52,767 bases of DNA, from positions 1 through 52,767 of IMG/VR virus record IMGVR_UViG_3300034524_000183, one strand, 5' to 3'. The stretch comes from a virus (lineage: Duplodnaviria > Caudoviricetes). Below, piece after piece: positions 727 through 48,533 of this stretch. The translations under genes and the position numbers were made by a program. Position 1 is the stretch's first letter. Every line of letters starts with the position of its first letter. The notes below the pieces were generated by a model. It was not told where the DNA came from, made no database searches, and was given only the letters and a program-made list of their open reading frames with translations.

Positions 727-735
727 GGAGGCCGC

Positions 736-4188: not shown

Positions 4189-4191
4189 ACT

Positions 4192-4224
4192 AGGAAGCCC
4201 CGGTGGAAACACTGGGGCTTTCCT
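4192..4224 (+). terminator. Intergenic stem-loop, probable terminator/attenuator
   Basis: AGGAAGCCCCGGTG-GAAA-CACTGGGGCTTTCCT right after the stop codon; weak U-tract. Confidence 0.55.
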
Positions 4225-4245
4225 CATTCTAGGAGAAGTTCACAA

Positions 4246-7200
4246 ATGGCACTGAGTTACGATGTATTCCAGTCCGACGGCTCCAATCCGATCTTCAACC
4301 TCTCCTTCGAGTACATTGACCGTGCTCATGTGAAAGTGAAGATCGACGGCGTGGAGGTCAACGAAGCTGGCTATACTTTCGAGTGGCTTAATAGCCAGTC
4401 TATCAAGCTCTCGCCCACGCCGCCGCAGGGAGCGTCTATCAAACTCTATCGAGAGACGCCTCGTGACGCCCGTCTGATTGACTTCAAAGACGGCACGACG
4501 ATGCAGGAAGAAGACCTCGACACTGCCATCAACCAACAGTTCTTCCTCATGCAGGAAGTGCTGGATGCGTCTGTGGGTGACGCGATCATGGCGGCTTATG
4601 AGGATACAGTTCGACATTACAACCTCACCCTTGGCGTTAAGGCTGACATCGAAGCTCTCAAGCTGGAGATCGAGGGGCATATCGCAACCGAACACCAGCT
4701 TGTCGAAAAGGCTCGTCAGTGGGCTGAGAACCCTGAAGACGCCGCAGTTGAGGAAGGAGCGTATTCTGCCAAGCATTGGGCAGCTAAAGCGAAAGCACAG
4801 ACGGACAAGGCCATCGCCGAACGTGAAGCCGCAGGCTTCCCCTTGTGTGAGGCTTCCAAGGCAGGGAACCTGCTTCGCCTGAAAGATGATGCCAGTGGAT
4901 ACGAGTTCTTCAAACTTGCTCCCAATGGTCCGGGTATTAGGAACACCATCCTCTCCGGGTGCGTAAAAGACGGCTATCCTGCCTTTCTCGTTGGTCCTGA
5001 GTTCCTGAACATGGAACACGAAAACAACGTGAAGCATTCCAAAATCGGCACAGTCTCCGCTTCGGCTATCTACAACGGTACTTACAATGAAGTGAAGCCG
5101 CTTAGGAACCAAGTCGTATGGGAAAGCAATGGATGGCTGACACCCAACGGTCAACGGGCAGGCTGGTGGCAGTACGACTTCACCAGTGCGCATGTTCTCG
5201 TTGGTATGTTCATGATCCCCTACGATAACCAGCAGGGCCAGTGTCCCAAGGACTGGGAGCTTCTCGGTTGGAACGGTGATGGCTGGGACATGATCTACTC
5301 CCGCACGAGCGATCAAGGCCAGCGTGGGTACAATTCCAACGCCAAGACTGATGGGCGCATGTATTGGTTCACAGAGAACACCAAAGCGTACAAGCGTGTT
5401 CGTTTGAACGTAAAGGACGTTATTGGTGATTCAAACAACAGAATCAACATTGCCGCGATCCGCTTCTATGAGGCGGTGATCCCCGGACAACACAAGTACG
5501 ACGTGGCTCTCTACGCCTCGAACGACATCCCGTTCATGGCATCTGTAGCCTGCGGATACGATGAAGAGAAACGTCCTGTGGACAAACCGTACCGCTTCAC
5601 GTCCCCTGTGAACATTGACGGGAACAAGTTCGCGGAGATGTCCCGCAACTACGTCTATCTGGTTCCGGCTGAAAAGGACGGCAGTCTCCCTGCGAATCTC
5701 AATCCCGCAAAGGCTACCAAGATCGCAGGTCATGATGCCTTCCTCTATGTGGACACCCGTCAGGTTCACTACGGCTCCGTGAGCGACATCGAACGTCAGA
5801 ACATTGGGTTGCTGCAAAGTCGGCATGAGGTTGATTACAACCCTGTTCCGAACGGCGATTTTGAGCACAACATGAACTGGTACGGAAATCCCATCGACTT
5901 CACCAACGTCCGTGTGTTCACCTCTGAACCTCATCGAGGAGCACCTTCGTCTTACCACTTTGACGGAGGGAACAACTATATCCATACAGCGAAGCAACTG
6001 GAGGGTGTGTTCAAGAACAAGAGCTACCATCCGTATGGGCAGGACTTTACGATGGAGATTGACTTCAAGTTCGAGGGCAACGCTCCTGAGTCGTCCGACA
6101 GCTACTACATTCTCTTCGACAATGGGTATAACAATAACAAAGGAATGGGCGTCCACTACTGGAACCGGCGAAAAAGTTTCAGTCTGCACTGGAACACAGA
6201 CCAGTTCTACCACATTCCTTTCGATGCTTCAGACAGGCAGTGGCACACGCTGGCTGTGTCGAAGAAGGGTTCTCGCCTGTTCATGCACGTGGACGGGAAG
6301 TGCCTTGGAGCATTTAACGATGTTCCAGACATCAACCAGTATTACCGTGGATGGATGCTTGGGCGGTGGTGGCACAAAGACGGTGGCAGGTGGATCGGGT
6401 GCCTGAACAACTTCCGGTACACCGTAGGCTCGTGCCTGTACCAAGGCGAAGACTATGAGGTAACGCCTACGTTCTCAAGATCACTGATCCCGCACAAGAC
6501 GTTGTGGTACGACGCTGGTGAGGGTGTCGTCAAAGAATGGGACGCTTTCGCTGAAAAGTGGACGGCGACTCCAATGCTACCGCTTGGACACGTGGAGACT
6601 GGTTTCAAGGAGCATCTCCTCACAGACCAACCCCGTGGTACTCATCATATCCGACAGACGAAGTGGATCGTTCCTGACGGCTACGCTGCTTCAAGTAGCT
6701 ACGATGGAAACCACACGCCTGAGAGCCTGTTCAACTTCGGACACGGCGGGGAGTACCCATACAGCACAACGACAACCGCACACACTGAAGATCATTACGT
6801 CCAATTCACGCTTGAGAAGCCAATGGCGTTCGAGCGTTTCGTGCTCTGCAACACGACATGGGACTGGCGGGCGTTCCCTGCGAAGTTCAAAGTGTTCGGA
6901 TCAAACCAGAATGGCGTATGGGAACTTCTTGTGGATCGTCAGGCTCCTAAAGCAGAAGACGGAGGAGCCGCTCACAACTGTCCCAAGTCGCATGGCAACT
7001 CCCATCACGTCACTTTCTACAAGCACTTCCAGATCACGAACACCAAGCCCTACCGGACAATCCGTATAAATCTGCCCAACAAAGGTGATGTTCCATTCTA
7101 CGCGGATTTCGACAGGACGGCCTTCCGCATGACCATGACCTTCGCTGGTGCAAAGCCGGAAGTTGAGAAGATCACGTCCTATGCCATTGGTGGCAGCTTC

Positions 7201-7524
7201 TCCATAGGGCCGATCCCTATCGACGTGAACCAGAACTACAGATTCGAGGTTCCGTTTGGAGGTGCGCCGTTCAATGTCGTCGGATACGTGGAAGAACAGT
7301 GGGACTTCCAAAGCAAGAGGCGTTTGCTTGGGCAAGCCAGTACACACAACGCAAACGGCTATCAAGGCTATGGGGAGCTTGTATACATTGAGCAGGATGC
7401 CATCACTGTGCAGACTCTCAAAGACTACATCTCCTTCTACACGGGGAACGTGTGGAACTGTCCTTCTGTGAACGTGGCAAGCACGAAAGCGAACCTCTAC
7501 CTCAAAGCTGAAAGGAGGTGGTAA
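4246..7524 (+). CDS. Tail fibre with T7 gp17-type N-terminal anchor, two discoidin (F5/8-C)-like domains and a LamG/concanavalin-like domain
   Basis: The N-terminus (FNLSFEYIDRAHVKV...RETPRDARLIDFKDG...DLD) is typical of the T7 fibre anchor. Internal motifs WWQYDF...PKDWELLG, HFDG...FTMEIDFK...WHTLAVSKKG...HVDG and YVQFTL...PAKFKVFGS. Confidence 0.88.
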   Translation: MALSYDVFQSDGSNPIFNLSFEYIDRAHVKVKIDGVEVNEAGYTFEWLNSQSIKLSPTPPQGASIKLYRETPRDARLIDFKDGTTMQEEDLDTAINQQFFLMQEVLDASVGDAIMAAYEDTVRHYNLTLGVKADIEALKLEIEGHIATEHQLVEKARQWAENPEDAAVEEGAYSAKHWAAKAKAQTDKAIAEREAAGFPLCEASKAGNLLRLKDDASGYEFFKLAPNGPGIRNTILSGCVKDGYPAFLVGPEFLNMEHENNVKHSKIGTVSASAIYNGTYNEVKPLRNQVVWESNGWLTPNGQRAGWWQYDFTSAHVLVGMFMIPYDNQQGQCPKDWELLGWNGDGWDMIYSRTSDQGQRGYNSNAKTDGRMYWFTENTKAYKRVRLNVKDVIGDSNNRINIAAIRFYEAVIPGQHKYDVALYASNDIPFMASVACGYDEEKRPVDKPYRFTSPVNIDGNKFAEMSRNYVYLVPAEKDGSLPANLNPAKATKIAGHDAFLYVDTRQVHYGSVSDIERQNIGLLQSRHEVDYNPVPNGDFEHNMNWYGNPIDFTNVRVFTSEPHRGAPSSYHFDGGNNYIHTAKQLEGVFKNKSYHPYGQDFTMEIDFKFEGNAPESSDSYYILFDNGYNNNKGMGVHYWNRRKSFSLHWNTDQFYHIPFDASDRQWHTLAVSKKGSRLFMHVDGKCLGAFNDVPDINQYYRGWMLGRWWHKDGGRWIGCLNNFRYTVGSCLYQGEDYEVTPTFSRSLIPHKTLWYDAGEGVVKEWDAFAEKWTATPMLPLGHVETGFKEHLLTDQPRGTHHIRQTKWIVPDGYAASSSYDGNHTPESLFNFGHGGEYPYSTTTTAHTEDHYVQFTLEKPMAFERFVLCNTTWDWRAFPAKFKVFGSNQNGVWELLVDRQAPKAEDGGAAHNCPKSHGNSHHVTFYKHFQITNTKPYRTIRINLPNKGDVPFYADFDRTAFRMTMTFAGAKPEVEKITSYAIGGSFSIGPIPIDVNQNYRFEVPFGGAPFNVVGYVEEQWDFQSKRRLLGQASTHNANGYQGYGELVYIEQDAITVQTLKDYISFYTGNVWNCPSVNVASTKANLYLKAERRW

Positions 7525-7781
7525 TGCGCCAGATCACTTGGCTCAGGCCAGATGGAAAGACCTATGTCTCGCCTACTCAGGCTTCACAGAGTGATGTCGC
7601 CATTCCTGACACCCCCGGCGCGGACTTCAGTTTCAACCGGGAGAGGTGGGAGTGGGAACGTGTCTACGAGGCTCCTGCCCCTAACGACATCACCGTTCCC
7701 GAAGCAGAGGAACTCTGGCGTCTGGCCCACGAAGAAAACAACGCAATGGCCTCAGTGCTGCTCAAGCACCTGAACCTGTAA
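7524..7781 (+). CDS. Small protein coupled to the tail fibre (possible fibre chaperone)
   Basis: ATG overlaps the fibre stop (TAATG); GGAGG RBS. Confidence 0.6.
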   Translation: MRQITWLRPDGKTYVSPTQASQSDVAIPDTPGADFSFNRERWEWERVYEAPAPNDITVPEAEELWRLAHEENNAMASVLLKHLNL

Positions 7782-7785
7782 ATAC

Positions 7786-7818
7786 AAGGGTGGGAGTGTA
7801 AAAGCTCCTGCCCTTCTT
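7786..7818 (+). terminator. Intergenic stem-loop
   Basis: AAGGGTGGGAG...CTCCTGCCCTT followed by CTT. Confidence 0.5.
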
Positions 7819-7834
7819 CATAGAGGAGAACTAA

Positions 7835-8140
7835 ATGGCAGCACACGAGTGCGTCCAAGGTCCAAAACTTGAGAGTCTTGAGGCTGCTATCGGAGATATT
7901 CGTGAAGGCCAGAAAAAGACTGACGGGAAATTAGATAAGATCACTGAGCTTCTCGTCTCGGATGCGCACACCCAAGAACAGCTCAAGCATATAAAGGAAA
8001 CACAGCGTGACCATGAAGACCGTTTACGATCTGTGGAAACACGCACAAACACGAACTCAGGGTTCACTACACGTGCTGAACGCTTCTTCTGGATCGTGGT
8101 AACGGGCGGCATCGGAACCCTTTGGTATATTGCGAGGTAA
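7835..8140 (+). CDS. Holin-like/XhlA-like membrane protein
   Basis: Coiled-coil N-terminus and one C-terminal TM segment (FFWIVVTGGIGTLWYIA); sits where T7 17.5 sits, between fibre and terminase. Confidence 0.55.
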   Translation: MAAHECVQGPKLESLEAAIGDIREGQKKTDGKLDKITELLVSDAHTQEQLKHIKETQRDHEDRLRSVETRTNTNSGFTTRAERFFWIVVTGGIGTLWYIAR

Positions 8141-8143
8141 ATC

Positions 8144-8401
8144 ATGAGCAAAGCAACCACGAACGATCTTGCTGATCTGCATGGCATGTTCACCGAAGCT
8201 CTCGCCAAGAAACTGAAGAACGGCGATTTCACGTCTGCCGACCTCAGTGTCATTCGCCAGTTCCTGCGTGATAATGGCATCGAGTGTGACGGTGAACGTA
8301 ATGACGGCATCCAAGACCTTGTTGACTCCCTGCCTTCCTACGACTCCGATGAGGATGGAGCAGGTATGTCCTGCGGTCCTGATGGATGCCACCTGAATTA
8401 G
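8144..8401 (+). CDS. Terminase small subunit (T7 gp18-like)
   Basis: 85 aa with LADLH...TSADLSVIRQFLRDNGI, which matches gp18-type proteins; lies upstream of the large terminase. Confidence 0.85.
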   Translation: MSKATTNDLADLHGMFTEALAKKLKNGDFTSADLSVIRQFLRDNGIECDGERNDGIQDLVDSLPSYDSDEDGAGMSCGPDGCHLN

Positions 8402-8428
8402 GCCCAAATTCGCCTTCTAAGCCCTTTT

Positions 8429-8472
8429 GAGGAGGAGGATGACTTGTACGTCGTCTTCCTCCTTTTCTTTTG
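8429..8472 (+). terminator. Intrinsic terminator between small and large terminase genes
   Basis: GAGGAGGAGGATGAC-loop-GTCGTCTTCCTCCTT followed by TTCTTTT. Confidence 0.65.
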
Positions 8473-8533
8473 TCTAACGTCAAATTTAGGCGTCTTTCGA
8501 ACATCTAAAGCTATCCACCAAGGAGATAATCAC

Positions 8534-10267
8534 GTGAGTGTATTAGGTGGCACTATAGAACCCCTCCCGAAGAAGCTCCAAGACTTTCGTGTCTTTCTCA
8601 CAATGGTGTGGCGTCACCTGAACCTTCCTGATCCCACACCCGTCCAGCTCGATATTGCGCACTGGCTCCAGCACGGTCCACGCCGTAAAATCATCGAGGC
8701 ATTCCGAGGCGTCGGTAAGTCGTGGATCACTTCAACCTACGTTGTCTGGAAAGGGCGCATGTATCCCAACAGGAAGTTCCTTGTCGTCTCTGCGTCGAAG
8801 GAGCGCGCCGATAACTTCACCACATTCACCCTTCGTCTCATCAATGAAATCCCTGTGCTCCAGTGTCTTCGACCTCGCACCGACCAGCGTTGCTCCAAGG
8901 TGAGCTTCGACTTTGGCCCTGCGAAAGCCGACCATGCTCCTAGCGTCAAAAGCGTCGGTATCTTCGGACAGCTTGCTGGATCACGTGCAGACGAAATCAT
9001 CCCTGACGATATCGAGGTTCCCAACAACGCCTTCACGCAGTCCATGCGGGACAAGCTCAGTGAGGCCGTGAAGGAGTTCGATGCAATCCTGAAGCCGGGA
9101 GGTTCTATCAACTTCCTCGGCACACCTCAGACAGAGCAGTCGCTCTACAACCTTCTTCAGGATCGAGGGTACCAGACGCGCATCTGGCCTGCCCGTTATC
9201 CTGAACCTAGCGATGGCATCTATACCGACTGTCTGGCTCCGATGATCGCCGAACCGCTTACGGCTGCGGACGGTCACAAGATGGTCGGCAAGCCTACCGA
9301 TCCTCTACGGTTCAATGAGGACGACCTCATAGAGCGAGAACTGTCGTATGGACGCTCTGGCTTCGCCCTTCAGTTCATGCTGGACACCCGGCTGTCCGAC
9401 GCGGATCGCTATCCACTCAAGCTCTCCGACCTGATCGTAATGAACCTTTCGCCCAATGAAGCCCCGGAGAAAGTGGTATGGGCAGCATCCCCTGAGCTGG
9501 TTCATGACGATCTCGCCTGTGTGGGACTGAATGGGGACAGGTACTACCGCCCGATGTGGCTTGCCAACAACTGGATAGACTACAACGGAAGCGTCATGGC
9601 TATCGACCCATCTGGTCGTGGTCAGGACGAAACGTCCTATGCCGTGGTCAAAATGCTCAACGGCTTCCTGTATGTCACAGACGCAGGTGGGATCGCAGGT
9701 GGCTACTCCGATGAAACGCTGGTCAAGCTGGCGAACATCGCGAAGGAGCAGAAAGTGAACAAGCTGGTGATCGAATCGAACTTCGGTGACGGCATGTTCA
9801 CGGAACTTCTCAAACCTCACCTGCGGCGCATTTACCCGGTAGGTATTGAAGAGGTCCGTCACAACATCCAGAAGGAGCGACGCATCATCGACACCCTTGA
9901 ACCTGTCATGAACCAGCATCGTCTTGTGATCGACAAGAAGGTGATCCAGCAGGATTACGCCTCGACAAAGCACCTCCCGCCTGAGAAGGCACTCAAGTAC
10001 CAGCTCTTCTACCAGATGAGCCGCATCACCTTTGAGAGAGGCTCTCTGGCACACGACGACCGCCTCGACGCTCTTGCCATCGCTGTGGGCTACTGGGTGA
10101 ACCAGATGGCTCAGGACGTGGACATCAAGGTCAAGCAGCGTCAGGAAGAGCTACTCGACAAGGAACTTGAGGTCTTCCTCGGTCACGCTGGCGCAGGCAT
10201 GGATATGGCAGTGGTTGTGGGCGTTGATAACTGCCCGGAATCATTGGATGGGCCTACTTGGATATGA
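8534..10267 (+). CDS. Terminase large subunit (T7 gp19-like)
   Basis: AFRGVGKSW Walker A, GSRAD.I..DD.E, LGTPQ, nuclease motifs AIDPSGRGQDET and HDDRLDALA. GTG start at 8534 after AAGGAG. Confidence 0.95.
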   Translation: MSVLGGTIEPLPKKLQDFRVFLTMVWRHLNLPDPTPVQLDIAHWLQHGPRRKIIEAFRGVGKSWITSTYVVWKGRMYPNRKFLVVSASKERADNFTTFTLRLINEIPVLQCLRPRTDQRCSKVSFDFGPAKADHAPSVKSVGIFGQLAGSRADEIIPDDIEVPNNAFTQSMRDKLSEAVKEFDAILKPGGSINFLGTPQTEQSLYNLLQDRGYQTRIWPARYPEPSDGIYTDCLAPMIAEPLTAADGHKMVGKPTDPLRFNEDDLIERELSYGRSGFALQFMLDTRLSDADRYPLKLSDLIVMNLSPNEAPEKVVWAASPELVHDDLACVGLNGDRYYRPMWLANNWIDYNGSVMAIDPSGRGQDETSYAVVKMLNGFLYVTDAGGIAGGYSDETLVKLANIAKEQKVNKLVIESNFGDGMFTELLKPHLRRIYPVGIEEVRHNIQKERRIIDTLEPVMNQHRLVIDKKVIQQDYASTKHLPPEKALKYQLFYQMSRITFERGSLAHDDRLDALAIAVGYWVNQMAQDVDIKVKQRQEELLDKELEVFLGHAGAGMDMAVVVGVDNCPESLDGPTWI

Positions 10268-10503
10268 TGGCTGTAACAGCCTGAAATAAAAGAGGATTCA
10301 ATTAGGTTGCACTAACAAGGGGGAAGGAAGGAAGGCAAGAAAGAATGAACACTTAGTAAAGTTGTACTATAGTTAAACTTAGGACAACCTAAGTAGCCTT
10401 CTTCTATGCTCTTCCCTCCATCCTTCTTTCTTATTGCTTCCTCCTTCTTCCTCTTCAACCTGTATCCTTGGGTGGCTTACGATTGACGTAGGCTACCCTT
10501 GGA

Positions 10504-14584: not shown

Positions 14585-15688
14585 ATGGCGAGAAAAGCAA
14601 CAACGACGAAAAACACTCAAACATTACCGAGAGGTATCCGGCTTCGCAACGGTCGGTTCTTTGTGGACGTAATGGTTAAGGGGAAGCGCAAGACAGCAAC
14701 TTGCGCAACCCTTGAAGAAGCAATCACTCGACGGACAGAACTCAAGGAGGCTCTCAAGCGCGGCCTCGACGGGAAGAACGAGGAAAAGGCGGTAACTGGC
14801 GGCTGGACGCTCAACCAAGCCCTTCAGTACACCATACGGCACCACTGGGCTGGTACTGGTGGAGAAGAAAAAGCTGTCATCAACGCAAACTATGCGGTCC
14901 GCTTCTTTGGCCCTGACAAGCCTCTTGATAAAATCGACAGCCTTGCACTGGATGAATACAAGGAATGGTTGATTGAAGAGCACAACAACTCAAACGCTAC
15001 GATCAATCGCAAGATGTCGGCGTTGTCCAAGTTGTTTACGATGGCAATCGAACGCGGAAAGCTCAAGGCGAAACCCAAGTTCCCGCGCTTGAAAGAAACA
15101 GGTGGCAGAATCCGCTTCTTGAGCGAGGACGAAGAGCGTGTATGCGTAAACCTGCTCAAGCAGTGGAGCCTCGACGACCATGCTGATGCGTTCGTGATAC
15201 TGATAGACACAGGAATGCGTCCTTCGGAGCTGTGGCGGTTGAAACTCAATGACATTGACTTCAACACTGGCCTCATCTCAATATGGGAGAACAAGACCGA
15301 CAATCCGCGCTCTATTGCAATGACCAAAAGAGTGGTGGAAACAATCCGCACACGCCTAGATGAACTCCCTACGCGTATTGTTGGCGACGAAGACCATCTT
15401 GTATGGGACGGGGTTACACTCTTCCCCAACGCTACGAACTATTGGTTTGAACGTGTCTGGAACAAGGTGAAGCACGTGATGAAACTGGACGACGACGAAC
15501 AGTTCGTTCCATATGCACTGCGACACACTTGCTGTTCGCGGTTGATACAGCGTGGTGTGCCTCTCAAACACGTCAAGGATTGGATGGGACACAAAGCCAT
15601 CCAAACCACAATGAGGTATGCCCATCTCGCGCCCCAAGACATGAAGTCTTTGGCGTCGGTTTTAGAGTCGAAGGAGGCGCGGTGGTAA
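14585..15688 (+). CDS. int: Tyrosine integrase
   Basis: N-terminal arm-binding beta domain; TGMRPSEL (R), NKT (K), YALRH, MGH and TMRY catalytic motifs. Confidence 0.95.
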   Translation: MARKATTTKNTQTLPRGIRLRNGRFFVDVMVKGKRKTATCATLEEAITRRTELKEALKRGLDGKNEEKAVTGGWTLNQALQYTIRHHWAGTGGEEKAVINANYAVRFFGPDKPLDKIDSLALDEYKEWLIEEHNNSNATINRKMSALSKLFTMAIERGKLKAKPKFPRLKETGGRIRFLSEDEERVCVNLLKQWSLDDHADAFVILIDTGMRPSELWRLKLNDIDFNTGLISIWENKTDNPRSIAMTKRVVETIRTRLDELPTRIVGDEDHLVWDGVTLFPNATNYWFERVWNKVKHVMKLDDDEQFVPYALRHTCCSRLIQRGVPLKHVKDWMGHKAIQTTMRYAHLAPQDMKSLASVLESKEARW

Positions 15689-15749
15689 AACTGGACTTGC
15701 GTTGTGTAGGGATTTAAAGTAACCGTCAATCCCGGTTTTTCCGGCAGTG

Positions 15750-15796
15750 GTTGCGAACTGTTGCGAAAAACGTCGTTTGTTGCGAATTGTTGCAAA
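15750..15796. repeat. Four GTTGC(G/A)AA direct repeats; putative integrase arm-type sites
   Basis: Copies at 15750, 15760, 15779 and 15789 (two pairs with 10-bp period) between int and the att core. Confidence 0.75.
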
Positions 15797-15798
15797 GG

Positions 15799-15887
15799 GC
15801 CGGAGTGGTGAAACTGGTATACACATCGGACTTAAAATCCGAAGATCATTAATGATCGTGCGGGTTCGATTCCCGCCTCCGGTACCA
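15799..15887 (+). tRNA. tRNA-Leu (anticodon TAA), complete with CCA
   Basis: Acceptor GCCGGAG/CTCCGGT-A-CCA, anticodon arm TCGGA-CTTAAAA-TCCGA, long variable arm GATCAT-TA-ATGATC, T arm GCGGG-TTCGATT-CCCGC. Confidence 0.95.
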
Positions 15888-42305: not shown

Positions 42306-43868
42306 GTGCCCAACTATTACACTCTTCTGACCAACAAAGGGAAAGCCAAGCTTGCTGCAGCCCAGAACGGCACGCCGGTGCAGATTACCGAGTTCGCGCT
42401 GGGCGACGGCAACGGCAGCGACATTGTACCCAGCGAGGCTATGATAGCGCTGGTTCGCGAAGTGCACCGCCGCCCTGTGAACTCCATCTACATCCATCCG
42501 CAGAACCCCAACTGGACCGTTGCCGAAGTCGTGGTGCCGCAGGACGTGGGCGGCTTCACCGTGCGCGAGGTGGGCCTGTATGATGCCGATGGCGACCTCT
42601 TCGCCATTGGTGGCTACCCCACCACCTACAAGCCCCTGCTTGATAGCGGCGTGGGCAAAGAGCTGTGCCTTCGCGCCGTGCTTGCCATCAGCAATGCTTC
42701 CACCATCAAGCTGACCATTGATCCTTCCGTGGTTACGGCCACGCGGGAGTTCGTGGATCGGGCCATGGCGATGCATAACGATAGCCCGGATGCCCACGGC
42801 GAAGCCTTTCAAGCCCTTGCCGGGCATATTCAGGATAAGGACGACCCGCATGCAACGCTGCCTCCCGGTGGCGAGACGGGACAGGTGATCATCAAACAGG
42901 CAGACGGCTCCCTTGCGTGGGGTTCCGTGGCTGGTATGCCTGTTGGCACCTTGCACTTCCCGAGCACCGGCAAGCCGGATCCCGGCTCCGTGGCCGTGAA
43001 CGTGAAGCAGAAGTTCCTGCGCACCGTCTATCCTCAGCTCGTGGCCCGTGTACTTGCCGATGGGGGCTACCTTGCCACCGAAGAGGCATGGGATGCCGCT
43101 GCAGCAACGAATGAAGGCAGCTGCGGGCGTTACGCGTTAACAGACACGCACATCATCCTACCGTGCTACCGGCATTATTGGGCTGCAGCTCAGCCGGGTG
43201 TAACGGGTAAAGAGGCGGGGGATTGGGCTGAAGACGCTATCCGGAATATTATGGGTGAGGTAGGGCTGACTGATAATATTGGATTTTTGACTAACGCTTC
43301 AGGAAGTTCTGGTGCTCTGACAACCGGGGCGTTCCGCAATATTGGCCTAACTGCATCAGGAGGGACTGCATATAATGTAGCATTTGATGCATCCCGCGTT
43401 GTCCCTACAGCCGATGAAAACCGCCCCAAGACATCCTACTTGCTGCCCTGTATCAAAGTCGCTGATGTTGTGATCAACGCCTCTCAGGTTGATATGCTGG
43501 CGCTGGCTGGGCAGGTGGCCCAGATTAACGGGGGCAAAGTCGACAAAGGCGATGCCGAATATCGCAGCATAGTAGAACTGAAAGGCTCGCGTGGCGCTGC
43601 CGGAACGTGGACCATACCGGACTTGATTGTTGGGAAACCGCTGATTGTTTCCTTGACGGGCACATCTGATGATGGGGTGCTTTACAGAGTAGTCAGTGGC
43701 ACGCTGGATGCTGTGACAACATCTACCAGTCGCTATCACGGCATGGCCTCGCGAGCCAACTTTACCTCTGTCACTCCGTCATCGTTCGTGTTGATCCCGA
43801 CCGCCACCGTTGTTGAAATCTATATCCAAAACATTCAAACAGGGGCGACCCTGCGAGCCTATCAGTAG
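42306..43868 (+). CDS. Tail fibre protein (P2 gpH-type N-terminus)
   Basis: YYTLLT.KG..KLA, GDGNG, GGFTVREVGL and ATREFV; central EDAIRNI.G...FDASRVVPTADENRP module. Confidence 0.9.
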   Translation: MPNYYTLLTNKGKAKLAAAQNGTPVQITEFALGDGNGSDIVPSEAMIALVREVHRRPVNSIYIHPQNPNWTVAEVVVPQDVGGFTVREVGLYDADGDLFAIGGYPTTYKPLLDSGVGKELCLRAVLAISNASTIKLTIDPSVVTATREFVDRAMAMHNDSPDAHGEAFQALAGHIQDKDDPHATLPPGGETGQVIIKQADGSLAWGSVAGMPVGTLHFPSTGKPDPGSVAVNVKQKFLRTVYPQLVARVLADGGYLATEEAWDAAAATNEGSCGRYALTDTHIILPCYRHYWAAAQPGVTGKEAGDWAEDAIRNIMGEVGLTDNIGFLTNASGSSGALTTGAFRNIGLTASGGTAYNVAFDASRVVPTADENRPKTSYLLPCIKVADVVINASQVDMLALAGQVAQINGGKVDKGDAEYRSIVELKGSRGAAGTWTIPDLIVGKPLIVSLTGTSDDGVLYRVVSGTLDAVTTSTSRYHGMASRANFTSVTPSSFVLIPTATVVEIYIQNIQTGATLRAYQ

Positions 43869-43880
43869 GAGAACCTCTCC

Positions 43881-44351
43881 ATGCCTAGTACAATTCGTGT
43901 GTTTATTCTGGACAGCCGGGTGGTCAACACTGACAACGATGAAGATGCTGCCCTGTGGTTAAAGCGTGGTGCTCGTGAGCTTTCTGCTGATGAAATTGAC
44001 ACGACCTTCGGCGAACAGGCCCACCTTGCAGGCCCGCACAACTCCGTGGTGCATGCAGACGGCAGCATCACCTTTACCCCGGCTCCCTCCAGTCTCGAGG
44101 AACTGGCAGTGCTGGCCCGTGCAGAACGCAACCGGCTCATGCGTGAGGTCTATGACCCCGCCATGATGCAGCTGCTGCGCAGACACCGCACTGCTGTAAC
44201 CGCCGGAACCGATACCGCCGAAATCAACGCCAGCATTGCCGCGTGGGATGCCTACGCCGGTGCACTGGAAGGCGTGCCGGAACAGGCAGGCTTCCCGAAT
44301 GAAATCGTGTGGCCGCAGGCACCTGCAGCCAATGCGGAGCCTTCCGCGTAA
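43881..44351 (+). CDS. Tail fibre assembly chaperone
   Basis: RAERNRL...W.AY..AL..VPEQAGFP.EI.WP. Confidence 0.82.
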   Translation: MPSTIRVFILDSRVVNTDNDEDAALWLKRGARELSADEIDTTFGEQAHLAGPHNSVVHADGSITFTPAPSSLEELAVLARAERNRLMREVYDPAMMQLLRRHRTAVTAGTDTAEINASIAAWDAYAGALEGVPEQAGFPNEIVWPQAPAANAEPSA

Positions 44352-44441: not shown

Positions 44442-44777
44442 ATGCGCGACTCAGTCTTCTGGGATCCGGTCCGGCACCTGCAACGGCACGGCATCTCCAT
44501 CCGCAAAGGCCTTCAAGGCCACGGCGAGCCCGAATTCATGCTTGAGTTCGAGCGCACACGCCCATGGCCTCCCGCCAAGATCCAGCGGGCTATTCAGCTT
44601 CTGGACCAGTACCGCAACCTCATCCGCCTGCAGCTGGATGTTCCCCCCGGCATGCCCTACCGCTCATGCGAATCGCTCCGCGCCAAGGGCTACATCAAGA
44701 TCGTGGAGCTCGGGCCACGGCAGCACAGGTATGTGCTGACGGAGTTGGGAAAGAGGGTGTTGGGGGGGAAGCAATAA
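44442..44777 (+). CDS. Hypothetical protein
   Basis: 111 aa ORF with phage-like codon usage; C-terminal winged-helix-like YVLTELG. Confidence 0.55.
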   Translation: MRDSVFWDPVRHLQRHGISIRKGLQGHGEPEFMLEFERTRPWPPAKIQRAIQLLDQYRNLIRLQLDVPPGMPYRSCESLRAKGYIKIVELGPRQHRYVLTELGKRVLGGKQ

Positions 44778-44796: not shown

Positions 44797-45033
44797 TCAC
44801 CCCAAATAGTACCGAATCACATCGGAAACTATATCAATTAGCTCGTCACGTAGAAAGCACAGCACTCCGGGGACAACAATTCCAAAAAAGAAGTAATCCA
44901 ACAGCGAGCCTGCAACTAAAAGAAAAAAAACAAGCCTACGCCCAGAATACCACTCAAACCAAGTTCCTTGAGATATGGGCAAAGCCTGAAGGGCCCTTTC
45001 CCAAAGCGGGACTCCGTCCGTACATCTCGCCAT
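44797..45033 (-). CDS. Small membrane protein
   Basis: GAGG RBS; hydrophobic segments; follows 45043-45744. Confidence 0.55.
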   Translation of the reverse strand: MARCTDGVPLWERALQALPISQGTWFEWYSGRRLVFFLLVAGSLLDYFFFGIVVPGVLCFLRDELIDIVSDVIRYYLG

Positions 45034-45042
45034 GGCTACCTC

Positions 45043-45744
45043 TTATTCCGCAGGACTTCCGCCAAACCAGAGTCCCACCTCTTTTGACATCGACGCCCAG
45101 AACTTAACGCCGTTGTGCACATAGCTGCGCGTGCCGCTACCTACAGTCAGTTCTCCTGTGGTCAGGCCAAGCCCTTTGAGTATCTTGCCGCGATCATCTG
45201 GCTGGATGCCGGGTAAGCACCCGTCCATGATTCCGCCCATAGCGAAGATCATGTCCGTTGAGGACTTGGTCGTCCCATCAGAGGTGGCGATCATCAGAGC
45301 TTCCTTCATCAGGTGGGTGCTTGTGTCTTCTGTCAGTAGCACGCCAATATTGTCGTTTACCTTATATTGAATTGAAATGCCGCCTTGCCCGCTTTGTTCT
45401 TTGACGTAGTGCATGGAAAGCGGGAGTTTGGCATCATTGCTCATGAACTGGTCAAATCGCAGCACAAAGTCATCCGTCCTGAAGGGAAACGTCTTCACTG
45501 CGCTTTGGCTCTGGGCTTGAGCCACCGGAGCGGGAGCTTCTGCAACCTTATCCTTGTTGCCTCCGCTGAAGAGATAGAGAAGCAGCAAGGCTACAAAAAT
45601 GGTCAGGCAGCCAACGTTCAACTTCTTGTTGAACTTTTTCCCGGCAGCGCGATCTTCATCCGTTATCGGGTGCCCGCATTTGGGGCAGGCTTCCGCTTGT
45701 AGCGAAACTTGCTTCTTGCAGGCAGGGCAGGGCATGGTCTTCAT
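45043..45744 (-). CDS. Zinc-ribbon, single-TM membrane protein with extracytoplasmic domain
   Basis: CPACKKQVS..AEACPKCGHP then TM segment GCLTIFVALLLLYLF; AGGAG RBS. Confidence 0.8.
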   Translation of the reverse strand: MKTMPCPACKKQVSLQAEACPKCGHPITDEDRAAGKKFNKKLNVGCLTIFVALLLLYLFSGGNKDKVAEAPAPVAQAQSQSAVKTFPFRTDDFVLRFDQFMSNDAKLPLSMHYVKEQSGQGGISIQYKVNDNIGVLLTEDTSTHLMKEALMIATSDGTTKSSTDMIFAMGGIMDGCLPGIQPDDRGKILKGLGLTTGELTVGSGTRSYVHNGVKFWASMSKEVGLWFGGSPAE

Positions 45745-45852: not shown

Positions 45853-46731
45853 TCAATATGTGTTAGGTTTGCCGTGTCCCGTGAGCAGCCAGTCGGTGGA
45901 TGTTCCTGTCTTTTTCCAGCAGTCCACAATCCAGTTTGCAGGCACATCGTCTGCACGGGAATGCCGAGATATGGCACTACGGTCGACCCCGATGCTCTTT
46001 GCCAGTTCGGTCTGGCTGGCCGCGCCATAGGCCATCATAAGCCGATCACAAATCTGTCCGCCGATAGGGCTGAGCAGGCGAGTTGCTATATACCAGCGTC
46101 CGCCGCCGTATCTGTTTTGATGATACTGTATCCTGAGCGTAACTTTTCTCATTCCGTCTGACCTTCGGACAATGGTTTCGCCTTTGATCACTTCTCCATC
46201 ATGGGACTTGGCCAGCTCCATCAGTTCTTGCATCCGCTGCTGTTGTAGAGGGTGAATAAGCTCTAGGAAATCAATACCGGGTGTTGACTGACTGGCGAGG
46301 GAGCCGAGGTCTGCCTTCGCTGCCAGCACAAGCCACTGATCCGAAATAATCAGCAGGTTGTCCACAGGTGTCTCGGCAAGCTGTCTGGCAATCGCTATAT
46401 CCAACTTCAGCCTTAAATCGTTTGGGCGGATAGTTGTCAGCAGAGCCGATAGCGTGCCCCCGATAACAATGGGGAGAGTTTCCCACCATACTGCATGTGG
46501 CCCTGCACTTCCTCCGTCCAGTATAACATCGCCTGCGGCTTCGGTGCCGGTGCGCATTGCTCCCGTGTCTATGTTTATACTTCCGCCTTGTATGGCAGGG
46601 GGGATTTCGTTTCCGTATTGTGCTTGGAATGCGGTGTTCATGGATGTGATACGCAGTGATGTATCCCGCAAAACAGCCGGGGATTCTATGGCACTGCACA
46701 GCGCAGAAAGTGTGGTGATAACGTCTTGCAT
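45853..46731 (-). CDS. PAS-PAS sensor fused to a C-terminal phage CI-type (186/Phage_CI_repr-like) HTH
   Basis: PAS-like AIESPAVLRDTSLRITSMNTAF and GIDFLELIHP...IVRRSDG; HTH DRLMMAYGAASQTELAKSIGVDRSAIS...VPANW...DWLLTG. Confidence 0.75.
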   Translation of the reverse strand: MQDVITTLSALCSAIESPAVLRDTSLRITSMNTAFQAQYGNEIPPAIQGGSINIDTGAMRTGTEAAGDVILDGGSAGPHAVWWETLPIVIGGTLSALLTTIRPNDLRLKLDIAIARQLAETPVDNLLIISDQWLVLAAKADLGSLASQSTPGIDFLELIHPLQQQRMQELMELAKSHDGEVIKGETIVRRSDGMRKVTLRIQYHQNRYGGGRWYIATRLLSPIGGQICDRLMMAYGAASQTELAKSIGVDRSAISRHSRADDVPANWIVDCWKKTGTSTDWLLTGHGKPNTY

Positions 46732-46859
46732 GTTGACCTCAGAGCAATTTGTTGACGTAAAGTCACGTTAAACACTAAACGCGCAGCTTGGTCTTGACCA
46801 ATCCATAATCAAACGGGATACATATATCGCACAGACGCACTGCAATAGATTGGAGGAAC

Positions 46860-47078
46860 ATGATGTCTGATCCGGTATTCAGTTCTGAAGAACGTATCGA
46901 TTTGGTCGTGGAGGTGCAGGGGGTAGCTGACGGAGTGAGTGATATGCGCGGGAACGTCTTAGGCGTAGGCAACCAGCATATCATGCTGCTGATGGCGAGA
47001 CAGTTGGAGTGCATTGCCAGAATAATGGCAACACGATGCTCAGATTGCCCGATTTGCACAGGGCAATCGAAGAATTAA
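46860..47078 (+). CDS. Stand-alone small ORF with C-terminal CxxCxxC
   Basis: GGAGG RBS; divergent from the PAS-HTH gene and followed directly by a hairpin. Confidence 0.65.
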   Translation: MMSDPVFSSEERIDLVVEVQGVADGVSDMRGNVLGVGNQHIMLLMARQLECIARIMATRCSDCPICTGQSKN

Positions 47079-47080
47079 AT

Positions 47081-47113
47081 CAGGGCGGGAAAGCGGATTG
47101 CCTTCCCGCCCTG
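47081..47113. terminator. Hairpin between convergent genes
   Basis: CAGGGCGGGAA...TTCCCGCCCTG. Confidence 0.65.
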
Positions 47114-47122
47114 CTTAACTTG

Positions 47123-47500
47123 CTAGCCAATAGTCCATAAGTCGTCGTAGTGGATGCCGTTGGACACCAGCACCCGTTTTGCTAACTCTTGGGACGATGC
47201 CGGAACAACCGGAATAAAGCGGCCATTGTTCTGTTTTGCATATGCCGAAAACAGCTCCCATTGACTTAGAGTGTGGCTGTCTTCAATGGAGTCAGCAGTC
47301 TCGACTTCAAACACGTAAATCGTCCCTGACAATTTTGCGGTCACGTCAGGGATATGCCCGCTACTCTGTCCCTTCCAAGTAATGACGCCAGGCTGTGCCC
47401 CGCCAATATGGTCGGCCAATATGTTTGAGTAGCCGTGGGCCTTCAAGTGATCATAGACAGTCTGTACCATCGATTTGTGTGTGGCTTCAGATTTGCGCAT
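47123..47500 (-). CDS. Small PD-(D/E)xK-fold-like protein
   Basis: H....(helix)...PDVTA......VFEVET; GGAGG RBS; directly downstream of cI. Confidence 0.65.
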   Translation of the reverse strand: MRKSEATHKSMVQTVYDHLKAHGYSNILADHIGGAQPGVITWKGQSSGHIPDVTAKLSGTIYVFEVETADSIEDSHTLSQWELFSAYAKQNNGRFIPVVPASSQELAKRVLVSNGIHYDDLWTIG

Positions 47501-47582
47501 CTACCCTCCAATTAATAAGATTTGCGCGCGAATCTATCAAAAAAGGAAATCCTATACTACGAGATTTTTTCCTAGAATAGAC

Positions 47583-48533
47583 CTACATCCTTCGCTTCAC
47601 GTACACCACGGGGGCAACACGTTTAATGTGCTCCTGTGCGATCTCAAGATCAAAAGGCTGCTGTATTCCGCCGTTTCGACGCGGGAGCCAGCCCTGCAGC
47701 CTGACGAACCCCTTCCTCTCTGCCGGGCCATGCCAGAGCTTGATGGTTGCAGAACCATCGGCCTGTTCCACATAGACGGCATCTCCGGCCTCCGGCTCTC
47801 TGGACGGGTCGCAGTAGCAGACAAACCCTTCCCTGATCCCTTCCGGCAGCATCGAATCTCCCACCGGCAGCACTGCAACGGCATCCGGCCCAAGGCCCGG
47901 TAGACGCTCTGTGGTCACCGCCATGCGGCGGGTACATTCCCAGCCTTCCACGCCGCACTGAGCAAGGCCAGTCACCTGCATTGCCTCTGGCGGGACGGGA
48001 AGCGCCGGAACCACCGGGGGGATAGACTCCGACTCCGCTCTATCCTCAAACGGTTCACCAATGCCGAGCAGGAGCCAGTCCGGCGAAATGTGCAGACGGC
48101 GGGAAAGCAGCTCAAGATCGTCCGCGTTGGGCAACTGCCCCTTCTCCCATCCTTGGGCCCTTCCATAGCTCAATCCGAGGTCGCGTCCAAAGGCTGTTAC
48201 TGAAACGGGCATCTTGTCTCGAACTGCTCTCGTGCTCCATTGTCTGTAAATAACTTGAAACTGAGATTTCCAGTCTGGTGGTGTGGCATTTTCAGACAAT
48301 CTTTGCCCCAAGAAGGGATTCCCCTCTCTTAGTATGAGCCATTGTGGGGACAGGCCTAGCTTATGTGTCAGCATACGCATGTCTTCGACGTTTGGCCTTT
48401 GTCCTCGGCCCCACGCTTCCACTTTTCCCGGAGTTATCTCTAGGAATTGGGCGATGCTGCGAAGCGTAACTCCGCCTCGTTTGCCTGACATTTCAGATGA
48501 AAATTTATTCTTAATAATATCTAGTAGTTGCAT
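47583..48533 (-). CDS. cI: CI/LexA-like repressor with two tandem HTH domains and an S24 peptidase domain
   Basis: Two HTH repeats (W.RGQRP...LSPQWL and WEKGQLP...ISPDWL), AQCG cleavage-like site, GDSM Ser and TIK Lys; divergent from the early operon. Confidence 0.88.
   Translation of the reverse strand: MQLLDIIKNKFSSEMSGKRGGVTLRSIAQFLEITPGKVEAWGRGQRPNVEDMRMLTHKLGLSPQWLILREGNPFLGQRLSENATPPDWKSQFQVIYRQWSTRAVRDKMPVSVTAFGRDLGLSYGRAQGWEKGQLPNADDLELLSRRLHISPDWLLLGIGEPFEDRAESESIPPVVPALPVPPEAMQVTGLAQCGVEGWECTRRMAVTTERLPGLGPDAVAVLPVGDSMLPEGIREGFVCYCDPSREPEAGDAVYVEQADGSATIKLWHGPAERKGFVRLQGWLPRRNGGIQQPFDLEIAQEHIKRVAPVVYVKRRM

What the first reader, a model, noticed from the sequence alone, without database searches (positions are those of the whole stretch)
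45853..47113. Prophage-encoded PAS-PAS-CI-HTH sensor with a divergent small ORF: candidate signal-sensing induction switch
Seen: a 292-aa protein with two PAS-like segments and a C-terminal phage CI-type HTH. It faces a monocistronic 72-aa ORF (own GGAGG RBS, CxxCxxC tail, own hairpin) across a 128-bp gap that contains a TGAC-N5-GTCA palindrome (46753-46765). The pair sits about 0.5 kb from the SOS-cleavable cI. Known: Vibrio phage VP882 uses a PAS-containing receptor (VqmA-phage, LuxR-type HTH) to switch on the small antirepressor Qtip, and transcription-factor/small-ORF modules give SOS-independent induction in polylysogens. Inference: this is an analogous module with a different architecture (tandem PAS plus CI-type HTH), which may let prophage 2 respond to a ligand or redox cue independently of its neighbour. 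I do not know of a characterised example of this fusion.
Basis: partly seen in the sequence, partly recalled or inferred. Interest (0 to 1): 0.85.

Follow-up and report, generated by a model that had tools for sequence, protein, structure and literature searches.

The report
Prophage PAS sensor regulator with small-protein partner
A prophage of sulfate-reducing bacteria carries, next to its main repressor gene, a conserved pair of genes (a sensor-type DNA-binding regulator facing a tiny cysteine-rich protein) that looks like an extra, DNA-damage-independent switch for waking the virus, but this function is still untested.

Summary
ORF 45853-46731(-) encodes a 292-aa protein with a C-terminal 186-CI-type HTH (PF07022, E 3e-14). 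Pfam PAS models miss its N-terminal 220 residues. An AlphaFold model (pLDDT 80) shows two PAS units, and its best Foldseek PDB hits are tandem-PAS proteins (E ~1e-10).

The regulator faces a 72-aa Cys-rich ORF across 128 bp, about 0.5 kb from an S24-type cI. The family is tiny: 3 relatives among 1.84 billion representatives, those with a named source being Halodesulfovibrio or Desulfovibrio.

All 4 independent loci with upstream sequence keep the order cI, variable cargo slot, small ORF, regulator. The small ORF is under purifying selection (9 synonymous, 2 non-synonymous changes). The intergenic DNA has 1 change in 128 bp, while flanking synonymous sites are 19-41% changed.

Best reading (about 0.45): a TF-smORF-type accessory induction module, so far described only in linear plasmid-like phages. 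Here it has a new architecture and sits in an integrated myovirus-like prophage. No step of the mechanism is shown. I found no RNA data, and the complex prediction gave no verdict.

The PAS plus CI-HTH fusion is not unique: longer PAS(n)-CI-HTH proteins occur elsewhere in Desulfovibrionaceae genomes.

The parts
45853..46731 (-). Regulator gene (292 aa): N-terminal helix, PAS1, linker helix, PAS2, C-terminal CI-type HTH
   Evidence: ORF. PF07022 at E 3.1e-14. AF2 pLDDT 80.4. Foldseek tandem-PAS hits. dN/dS 0.12 against L002.
46420..46680 (-). PAS1 (residues about 18-104), a short PAS unit
   Evidence: Strands 19-22, 28-31, 65-71, 79-90, 93-103 and helices 33-39, 54-61 in the model. Relatives give sub-threshold Pfam PAS_4/PAS hits here: E 0.012 and 0.049, 0.0008.
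46072..46362 (-). PAS2 (residues about 124-220)
   Evidence: Strands 125-130, 134-139, 181-190, 193-205, 211-219 and helix 161-176. TIGR00229 sensory_box at 154-214, E 0.0072, below cut-off.
45856..46071 (-). CI-type helix-turn-helix domain (residues 221-292)
   Evidence: PF07022 at 228-289. 186 CI 2fjr at E 7.5e-4. dN 0.028 against L002. Shares only the final DWLL.G.G.P motif with the prophage cI.
46732..46859 (.). 128-bp divergent control region
   Evidence: 1 difference in 128 bp against L002, while flanking synonymous sites differ 19% (small ORF) and 41% (first 17 regulator codons). Conserved blocks across clades. No consensus sigma-70 site found in it.
46751..46759 (-). Conserved 9-mer TA(C/G)GTCAAC, about 20 bp upstream of the regulator start (candidate operator half-site or promoter element)
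   Evidence: Present once, at the same relative place, in the window (as L001) and in L002, L003, L004/L005 and L026.
46753..46765 (.).
   Evidence: Present. Kept in L026 but not in L004 or L003. Not significant by count alone.
46860..47078 (+). Small ORF (72 aa, or 71 from the ATG at 46863) with a helical N-part and a Cys4-type tail
   Evidence: ORF and GGAGG at 46852-46856. 9 synonymous and 2 non-synonymous changes against L002. Homologues of 76-80 aa at the same place in L004 and L026, 28-31% identical, with H40, C60 and C63 invariant. 4 clusters in 5.8 billion.
47081..47113 (.). 14-bp-stem hairpin between the small ORF and the convergent 125-aa gene
   Evidence: L002 has a different GC hairpin plus TTATTT after its small ORF.
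47123..47500 (-). Variable cargo slot, here a 125-aa gene. Not part of the conserved module.
   Evidence: Absent in L002, where 24 bp replace 47096-47583. Replaced by 1279 other letters in a contig of run X2 and by 1-2 lipoprotein genes in L004 and L026. Weak TIR_2 hit at E 9.5e-4, below cut-off.
47583..48533 (-). Prophage cI: two HTH repeats plus an S24 peptidase domain. Presumed target of the module.
   Evidence: HTH_3 and Peptidase_S24. phrog_4 transcriptional repressor at E 2e-24. GDSM S227 and K265 invariant in 4 sequences. Faces the apl-like and cII (PF06892) genes.

Best explanation
This is an accessory lysis-lysogeny control module of the TF-smORF kind, carried by an integrated myovirus-like prophage of Desulfovibrionaceae.

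The proposed mechanism has three steps. The 292-aa protein senses a small-molecule, redox or gas cue through its two PAS domains. Through its 186-CI-type HTH it binds the strongly conserved 128-bp divergent control region and so sets expression of the monocistronic 72-aa Cys4 small protein. That small protein then acts as an antirepressor on the neighbouring LexA-like cI, giving a route to induction that does not need RecA.

Shown here: the domain architecture, the reality of both genes, the constraint on the intergenic DNA, and the conserved synteny with cI.

Inferred by analogy: DNA binding at this region, the sign of regulation (activation as in VqmA-phage and TF72, or repression relieved by signal as in P22 Mnt-Ant), the small protein's target, and the cue.
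For: **Architecture.** PF07022 HTH. Tandem PAS by AF2 and Foldseek and by the ESM Atlas.

**Both genes are real and constrained.**
- Regulator: dN/dS 0.12.
- Small ORF: 9 synonymous and 2 non-synonymous changes, dN/dS 0.055.
- Intergenic region: 1 change in 128 bp, against dS 0.22 for the small ORF and 0.60 for the first 17 regulator codons.

**Synteny.**
- The order cI, variable slot, divergent small ORF, regulator holds in 4 of 4 independent loci with upstream sequence: window, L002, L004 (identical to L005) and L026. The regulators are down to 40% identical.
- L003 keeps a partial small ORF at its contig edge.
- A contig of an independent metagenome run (X2) carries regulator plus small ORF at 11 differences in 2383 nt. 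It has a different cargo and a mosaic cI.

**Downstream genes vary.** The window has 233-aa and 78-aa genes. L004 has 73-aa and 64-aa ORFs and a 130-aa Cys-rich ORF. L003 and L010 have a PadR-like gene.

**The small ORF tracks cI.** Small-ORF identity follows cI identity (97/99, 66/74, 28-31/50%) more closely than it follows regulator identity (79.5, 83, 41%).

**Small ORF layout.** It has its own RBS and a hairpin after it in both the window and L002.

**Published logic.** A phage TF activates a divergent small ORF, and the small protein inactivates an autoproteolytic cI. I read sections 4, 5 and 10 of PMC10432266. VqmA-phage has a PAS ligand domain and Qtip sequesters cI, from passages of PMC12802170.
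Against: - No functional or expression data: no RNA run is listed.
- Only four independent loci. Every relative whose source is named is Halodesulfovibrio or Desulfovibrio.
- The small ORF and cI are physically linked, so their matching divergence may simply reflect a recombination breakpoint inside the regulator gene (identity profile).
- In the X2 contig the small ORF is nearly unchanged, but the N-terminal 143 codons and the last 49 codons of cI are replaced by sequence below 80% identity. A strict small-protein/cI-DNA-binding-domain pairing would not predict this.
- No consensus promoter was found in the intergenic region.
- The candidate motif GTCAAC is absent from the cI-cro intergenic region, so there is no sign of direct action at the main switch. 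That is neutral for this reading.
- More distant PAS-PAS-CI-HTH proteins sit in other contexts. In L029 the gene lies between an integrase and early genes with no divergent small ORF. In L027 it faces a 104-aa ORF with a CI-like C-terminal motif by eye (no Pfam hit).
Confidence: 0.45

Rival explanations
1. A lysogeny-phase regulator of accessory (moron) functions. The PAS-HTH protein autoregulates and controls the co-oriented downstream genes (233-aa zinc-ribbon membrane protein, 78-aa membrane protein) or host genes in response to a cue. The small ORF is a minor regulated product with no action on cI.
For: - The regulator is followed on the same strand by the 233-aa and 78-aa genes. This block is kept at 11 differences in 2383 nt in run X2.
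- The region between the tail-fibre genes and cI is a cargo hot spot.
- Longer PAS(n)-PF07022 proteins (558 and 653 aa) occur in other Desulfovibrionaceae genomes. I did not examine their surroundings.
Against: - The downstream genes are not conserved with the regulator in L004, L026, L003 or L010, whereas the small ORF and cI are.
- Strong constraint on the small ORF and on the shared control region.
Confidence: 0.2
2. A two-part sensor or second immunity element. The Cys4 small protein binds the PAS regulator itself, as a partner-switch or redox/metal co-sensor (compare AppA-PpsR, recalled). The regulator then acts directly as an additional repressor or activator of phage promoters, not through cI.
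For: - The Foldseek hits include PpsR, a PAS-PAS-HTH repressor (4hh2).
- Four Cys are kept in both small-ORF clades, and there is a weak match to the Cys-containing segment of DnaX models (E 0.006).
- In L029 a related protein sits in the lysogeny-side gene block of another prophage-like element.
Against: - The regulator diverges freely (79.5%, dS 1.09) while the small ORF stays 97% identical between the window and L002. This is not what tight co-evolving partners usually show.
- The candidate motif was not found at the cI-cro region.
Confidence: 0.2
3. An anti-phage defence or toxin-antitoxin-like cassette carried as prophage cargo, with the HTH protein as sensor or antitoxin and the small protein as effector.
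For: It sits in a cargo-rich slot next to a 125-aa gene with a weak TIR_2 hit (E 9.5e-4, below cut-off). HTH proteins paired with small proteins are common in such cassettes (general knowledge).
Against: No PADLOC match of note for any of the 6 proteins tested; the best E was 0.029. The 125-aa gene is absent from L002. The fixed position beside cI over deep divergence points to a role in phage regulation.
Confidence: 0.05

Closest known systems
VqmA-phage / Qtip of vibriophage VP882
   Same: A phage-encoded PAS-containing transcription factor facing a counter-oriented small ORF, in a phage that also has an SOS-cleavable cI (passages of PMC12802170; PMC10432266 section 4). The small protein is more conserved than the sensor among relatives in both systems.
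   Different: One PAS there, two here. The DNA-binding domain is the 186-CI type (PF07022), not the VqmA type. No sequence relationship was found: 3 relatives only in 1.84 billion representatives. This is an integrated prophage, not a linear plasmid-like phage. The small protein is Cys-rich. Function is untested here.
TF72-smORF72, TF63-smORF63 and XRE/LuxR-smORF modules (Silpe et al. 2023, Nature 620:625)
   Same: Same regulatory layout: a TF divergent from a small ORF, with an autoproteolytic-type cI in the same phage. [quoted passage not shown]
   Different: Those lie at repA-telN or par loci of linear plasmid-like phages of Vibrio and Aeromonas. This one lies between the tail-fibre genes and cI of a provirus from sulfate reducers. 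A PAS-PAS sensor is fused to the TF. The paper's supplementary tables could not be seen, so a similar entry among its 61 loci cannot be excluded.
Phage 186 CI repressor (PDB 2fjr; Pfam PF07022)
   Same: HTH domain homology.
   Different: In 186 CI the HTH is N-terminal and is followed by an oligomerisation domain (recalled). Here it is C-terminal, behind two PAS domains. The prophage's own repressor is a different, S24-type protein.
PpsR/CrtJ-type PAS-PAS-HTH repressors
   Same: Tandem PAS followed by a C-terminal HTH in one polypeptide. Structural match to 4hh2 at E 7e-10.
   Different: PpsR is longer and chromosomal, and has another HTH type (recalled). No sequence-level relationship was seen.
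PAS(n)-PF07022 proteins in other Desulfovibrionaceae genomes (L032 558 aa, L033 653 aa)
   Same: The same fusion of PAS domains to a C-terminal Phage_CI_repr HTH. Weak homology over residues 108-287.
   Different: They have three or more canonical PAS domains with Pfam E down to 1e-38. I did not examine their neighbourhoods for phage genes, a cI or a small ORF. No paper on them was found.
P22 immI (Mnt / Arc / Ant) secondary immunity region (recalled, not tested)
   Same: A second regulatory locus away from the main operator. It consists of a DNA-binding regulator divergent from an antirepressor gene, in a phage with a cleavable repressor.
   Different: Ribbon-helix-helix regulators, a large Ant protein and no sensor domain.

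Membership tests
TF-smORF prophage induction modules (Silpe et al. 2023) | Phage-encoded transcription factor next to a divergently transcribed gene for a small protein | tested here: met
   292-aa HTH protein and 72-aa ORF lie divergent across 128 bp. The pair is conserved in 4 of 4 independent loci with upstream sequence.
TF-smORF prophage induction modules (Silpe et al. 2023) | The same phage has an autoproteolytic (RecA-dependent) cI | tested here: inconclusive
   Peptidase_S24 at 24.9 bits against 23.3, with GDSM and K265 invariant. The candidate cleavage site is QCG, but it reads CS in L026. Cleavage itself is not testable here.
TF-smORF prophage induction modules (Silpe et al. 2023) | The TF activates transcription of the small ORF | not testable with these tools
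   Only indirect evidence: the intergenic region has 1 change in 128 bp and conserved motif blocks. No consensus promoter was found.
TF-smORF prophage induction modules (Silpe et al. 2023) | The small protein inactivates cI and induces lysis independently of SOS | not testable with these tools
TF-smORF prophage induction modules (Silpe et al. 2023) | Location at repA-telN or par loci of linear plasmid-like phages (the setting in which the modules were found) | tested here: not met
   The module lies between tail-fibre/assembly genes and cI. The record is classed as a provirus and has an integrase and a tRNA-Leu. I did not search specifically for telN or repA.
Pfam PF07022 Phage_CI_repr HTH | Score above the gathering threshold | tested here: met
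   53.5 bits against 22. Relatives score 35.7-52.9 bits.
PAS domain superfamily | Sequence match to PAS profiles above curated thresholds | tested here: not met
   No Pfam PAS hit at E<=1. TIGR00229 at 16.5 bits against 22.9. Relatives reach E 0.0008-0.05, all below cut-offs.
PAS domain superfamily | Five-stranded antiparallel sheet flanked by helices (the PAS fold), present twice | tested here: met
   AF2 pLDDT 80.4 with two such units. The Foldseek top PDB hits are tandem-PAS proteins at probability 1.00. Viral PAS proteins match in BFVD. Atlas structural rows cover residues 6-225. All of this rests on predicted models.
VqmA family | Homology to VqmA (PAS plus VqmA-type DNA-binding domain), DPO binding | tested here: not met
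   An exhaustive phmmer search with residues 1-225 found only 3 relatives, all with a PF07022 C-terminus. The HTH is the CI type. Ligand binding is not testable.
Phage 186 CI repressor | N-terminal HTH plus C-terminal oligomerisation domain, acting as the prophage's main repressor | tested here: not met
   The HTH is C-terminal. The main repressor candidate is the S24 protein at 47583-48533, which faces the apl-like and cII genes.

The most novel reading that the evidence does not exclude
A prophage of strict anaerobes uses a tandem-PAS regulator to read oxygen, redox state or a metabolite. Through a zinc or Fe-S Cys4 micro-protein that disables its LexA-like cI, it induces itself without DNA damage. 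This would be the first TF-smORF induction switch outside linear plasmid-like phages and the first with a CI-type HTH. Divergent sensor alleles (79% identity, dS about 1, beside a 99% identical cI) would let co-resident related prophages respond to different cues. The MAG behind L002 holds two alleles, L002 and L010.
Probability: 0.15. Interest if true: 0.85.

Novelty: new variant of a known kind. Interest (0 to 1): 0.6.

Why it matters
TF-smORF modules are the only molecularly defined class of phage-encoded, SOS-independent induction switches. They are known only from linear plasmid-like phages of Vibrio and Aeromonas. The authors predicted that other phage types carry them but said that new search strategies would be needed (PMC10432266, Discussion).

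This locus is a concrete candidate in an integrated prophage of sulfate-reducing bacteria found in subsurface and shale-gas metagenomes. Its sensor domain type often binds haem, flavin or small ligands (general knowledge).

If confirmed, it would link prophage induction in anaerobes to a defined environmental cue. It would also give a recognisable search rule for more such switches: sensor-HTH gene, divergent small ORF, adjacent cI.

Tried and rejected
**Structure and complex prediction**
- Single-sequence AF2 of the regulator gave pLDDT 36 and was useless. It was replaced by the 4-sequence run.
- Complex prediction on cI plus the small ORF, both given as alignments A3 and A2, gave 'no answer' (score 0.01, mark 0.32). 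This is not evidence either way.
- Fold library pdb_via was not on the machine.

**Expression and reads**
- The look-up of sequencing runs listed no RNA holder.
- Read laying used contigs only, so uncovered stretches in X3 and X4 say nothing.

**Searches for relatives**
- The phage collection gave no nucleotide match. tblastn matched only the HTH, in 43 records, none covering 80% of the query.
- A single-protein scan of viral contigs gave 0 relatives. The alignment scan gave 3 loci.
- ESM Atlas on the small ORF gave a best score of 0.90 to clusters partly labelled Phage_cement_2, on a model with pLDDT 0.47. I treat this as uninformative.

**Ideas dropped**
- Cofactor guess: H160 is invariant in the 4 close sequences but is replaced in the distant relatives L027, L029 and L030. 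It also lies in the common PAS 'HP' motif (recalled). I make no haem claim.
- The palindrome as operator: not conserved in L004 or L003.
- The regulator acting at the cI-cro operator: no shared motif, and the HTH is only marginally similar to the cI HTHs.
- Defence system: no PADLOC hit of note.

**Literature**
- I found nothing on PAS plus antirepressor in prophage induction (0 papers).
- PF07022 plus PAS gave 2 unrelated papers, listing only.
- 'TF-smORF' occurs in 3 papers.
- A 2026 review of SOS-independent induction mentions neither VqmA nor smORF (find mode only).
Full report
**1. What is there**

The window is a 52.8-kb IMG/VR provirus record, 87% complete by CheckV.

- The left 10 kb carries T7-like late genes: an internal virion protein, a tail fibre and a large terminase.
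- An integrase lies at 14585-15688 and a tRNA-Leu at 15799-15887.
- From about 16 kb a second, myovirus-like element runs through primase, methylase, terminase, portal, tail, tail fibre (42306-43868) and tail-fibre assembly (43881-44351). It continues to an immunity region: an S24-type cI (47583-48533, minus strand) facing an apl-like ORF, a 152-aa ORF and a 186-type cII (PF06892).
- The finding lies in the 3.2 kb between tail-fibre assembly and cI.

**2. The regulator**

ORF 45853-46731(-) encodes 292 aa. Pfam finds only a C-terminal Phage_CI_repr HTH (residues 228-289, E 3.1e-14). The nearest solved sequence relative is the phage 186 CI N-terminal domain (2fjr, E 7.5e-4).

No PAS profile passes a curated threshold:
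- No Pfam PAS hit at E<=1.
- TIGR00229 scores 16.5 bits against a cut-off of 22.9.
- Relatives give sub-threshold PAS hits.

Structure prediction settles the question as far as models can:
- A single-sequence AF2 run failed (pLDDT 36).
- A run on a four-sequence alignment gave pLDDT 80.4 and pTM 0.65. It shows an N-terminal helix, two beta-beta-alpha-alpha-beta-beta-beta units (19-103 and 125-219) joined by a helix (105-118), and a five-helix HTH.
- The Foldseek top PDB hits are all tandem-PAS proteins: Brucella LOV-PAS, DosP, PpsR, FixL PAS-PAS, MmoS and HIF/ARNT. Their E-values run from 3e-10 to 1e-7 at probability 1.00. TM-scores are low (about 0.3), as expected when the domain arrangement differs.
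- In BFVD the PAS part matches viral PAS and histidine-kinase proteins and the C-terminus matches CI-like repressors. No high-confidence hit spans both parts.
- The ESM Atlas agrees: feature scores 0.95-0.97 to PAS clusters, with structural rows covering residues 6-225.

**3. How rare it is**

- An exhaustive phmmer search with residues 1-225 against 1.84 billion representatives found 3 proteins.
- Word-indexed searches found 2 of 2204 candidates for the single protein and 3 of 8000 for the profile.
- All relatives have the same architecture.
- Named sources are a Halodesulfovibrio MAG and H. aestuarii. The small-ORF homologue in the genome behind L026 is labelled Desulfovibrio mangrovi.
- A profile search of 301 genomes of the same bacterial family gave 14 with a match at E<=1e-15. 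Only G001 (two copies) and G237 are close. G158 and G081 have full-length distant relatives (E about 1e-32). The rest match mostly the C-terminal half.
- Among the distant matches, two are 558- and 653-aa proteins with three or more canonical PAS domains (Pfam E down to 1e-38) and a C-terminal PF07022. The fusion therefore exists beyond this phage.

**4. The small ORF is a real gene**

ORF 46860-47078(+) has GGAGG at 46852-46856. Database copies begin at the second ATG.

Against L002 it shows 9 synonymous and 2 non-synonymous differences (dN/dS 0.055).

Homologues of 76-80 aa occupy the same divergent position in L004/L005 and L026. They are 28-31% identical to the window's protein. Invariant residues are E18, G21, R30, V33, G35, H40, L43, L44, R47, E50, A53, C60, C63 and G68.

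Four Cys are present in both clades, with different spacing:
- Window: C51-x8-C60-x2-C63-x2-C66.
- L004: C58-x3-C62-x2-C65-x8-C74.

A weak hit to the Cys-containing stretch of DnaX models (E 0.006) fits a metal-binding knuckle. The identification of that stretch as the zinc module is recalled, not tested.

The family has 4 clusters among 5.8 billion, with no Pfam, PHROG or PADLOC match.

A 14-pair hairpin follows the ORF. L002 has a different GC hairpin plus TTATTT at the same place.

**5. The control region**

The 128-bp gap differs at 1 position between the window and L002. Synonymous sites of the small ORF differ at 19% (9 of 47.3). Those of the first 17 regulator codons differ at 41% (5 of 12.2). 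The non-coding DNA is therefore the most constrained sequence in the locus.

Across clades, where the regulators are about 40% identical, the alignment keeps blocks. These include TA(C/G)GTCAAC about 20 bp upstream of the regulator start and a second GTCAA copy about 40 bp further upstream. The 9-mer occurs once, in register, in every module locus.

It is kept in L026 and lost in L004 and L003.

The consensus scan finds no sigma-70-like promoter in the gap. That would fit factor-dependent promoters but proves nothing.

**6. Synteny**

- All four independent loci with sequence upstream of the regulator have the order cI, variable slot, divergent small ORF, regulator. These are the window, L002, L004 (identical to L005 over the region) and L026.
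- L003 starts inside the small ORF and L010 ends inside the regulator.
- The slot holds different cargo in each case: a 125-aa gene here, nothing in L002 (24 bp replace 47096-47583), and one or two lipoprotein genes in L004 and L026.
- In a contig of an independent metagenome run (X2), 1279 other letters replace 47079-47731. That contig matches 44696-47078 with 11 differences in 2383 nt. Its cI is mosaic: codons 144-267 are kept with 12 differences in 372 nt, and both ends are replaced.
- The genes downstream of the regulator differ between clades.
- The module always sits between the tail-fibre genes and cI.

**7. Evolution**

Between the window and L002:
- cI is 99.4% identical (dS 0.02).
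- The small ORF is 97% identical (dS 0.22).
- The regulator is 79.5% identical with dS 1.09 and dN/dS 0.12.
- The regulator's divergence is concentrated in the PAS domains (dN 0.17-0.21), against 0.03 in the HTH and the N-terminal helix.

This means an old, selected sensor allele has been recombined into an otherwise nearly identical immunity region. The pattern recalls the nine VqmA-phage isoforms beside near-identical Qtip (passage of PMC12802170).

The MAG behind L002 also holds a second, clade-B allele on another contig (L010). This could mean two related prophages with different sensors, or it could be a binning artefact.

**8. Mechanism**

The layout matches the published TF-smORF logic. 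A phage TF activates a divergent small ORF, and its product inactivates an autoproteolytic cI independently of SOS (PMC10432266; abstract and sections 4, 5 and 10 read). Those modules were sought and found only at repA-telN or par loci of linear plasmid-like phages.

I therefore rate 'TF-smORF-type accessory induction switch' as the best reading, at 0.45.

Points against it, or still open:
- No expression data.
- Only four loci.
- Linkage can explain why the small ORF tracks cI.
- The mosaic cI in X2.
- Distant relatives sit in other contexts (L027, L029, L030).
- The sign of regulation is open. It could be activation as in TF72, or a signal-relieved repressor as in P22 Mnt-Ant (recalled).

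Rivals:
- A regulator of accessory genes (0.2).
- A regulator/small-protein sensor pair acting directly on phage promoters (0.2).
- A defence or TA cassette (0.05).

**9. Novelty and score**

In the library searched I found no paper on PAS-CI-HTH phage regulators or on TF-smORF modules in integrated prophages. Supplementary tables were closed.

I file this as a new variant of a known kind. The anatomy is solid, the conservation is informative and the function is untested. Interest: 0.6.

Noticed in passing
window 47123-47500 (-): A 125-aa gene fills the slot between the small ORF and cI. It is absent from the 96%-identical relative L002 and replaced by other DNA in run X2. It has only a weak TIR_2 hit (E 9.5e-4, below cut-off) and a weaker TnsA-N hit, so it may be a small defence or moron gene.
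   Followed up: partly
window 44442-44777 (+); L003 1278-1553; L010 497-763: A 111-aa protein with a weak PadR-like hit has 33-35% identical homologues close to the regulator gene in two clade-B loci. It may be a further conserved neighbour of the module.
   Followed up: partly
window 45043-45744 (-) and 44797-45033 (-): A 233-aa protein (N-terminal zinc ribbon, one membrane helix, C-terminal domain matching unknown-function PHROGs) and a 78-aa membrane protein lie co-oriented downstream of the regulator. They are kept in run X2 but not in L004 or L026.
   Followed up: partly
window 47583-48533 (-): The prophage cI has two tandem HTH repeats, each ending in a (D/Q)W L(L/I)...G.P motif, before its S24 domain. 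The likely cleavage site reads Q-C-G (Cys-Gly as in UmuD, recalled), but C-S in L026.
   Followed up: partly
window 1-10300 and 14585-15887: T7-like late genes (internal virion protein, tail fibre, TerL) are followed by a lower-GC stretch, an integrase and a tRNA-Leu(TAA). This suggests a second, podovirus-type prophage stacked beside the myovirus-like one.
   Followed up: partly
L029 5666-12186; L030 1-10870: Distant PAS-PAS-CI-HTH proteins (291 and 304 aa) lie in other prophage-like contexts. One lies between an integrase and early recombination genes. The other lies after large tail-fibre-like genes, facing an unrelated 69-aa divergent ORF and followed by two co-oriented genes of 309 and 259 aa that I did not annotate.
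   Followed up: partly
G001 contigs C7 and C184 (L002, L010): One Halodesulfovibrio MAG holds two regulator alleles about 41% identical to each other's clade. This could be two related prophages with different sensors, or mixed strains in one bin.
   Followed up: no
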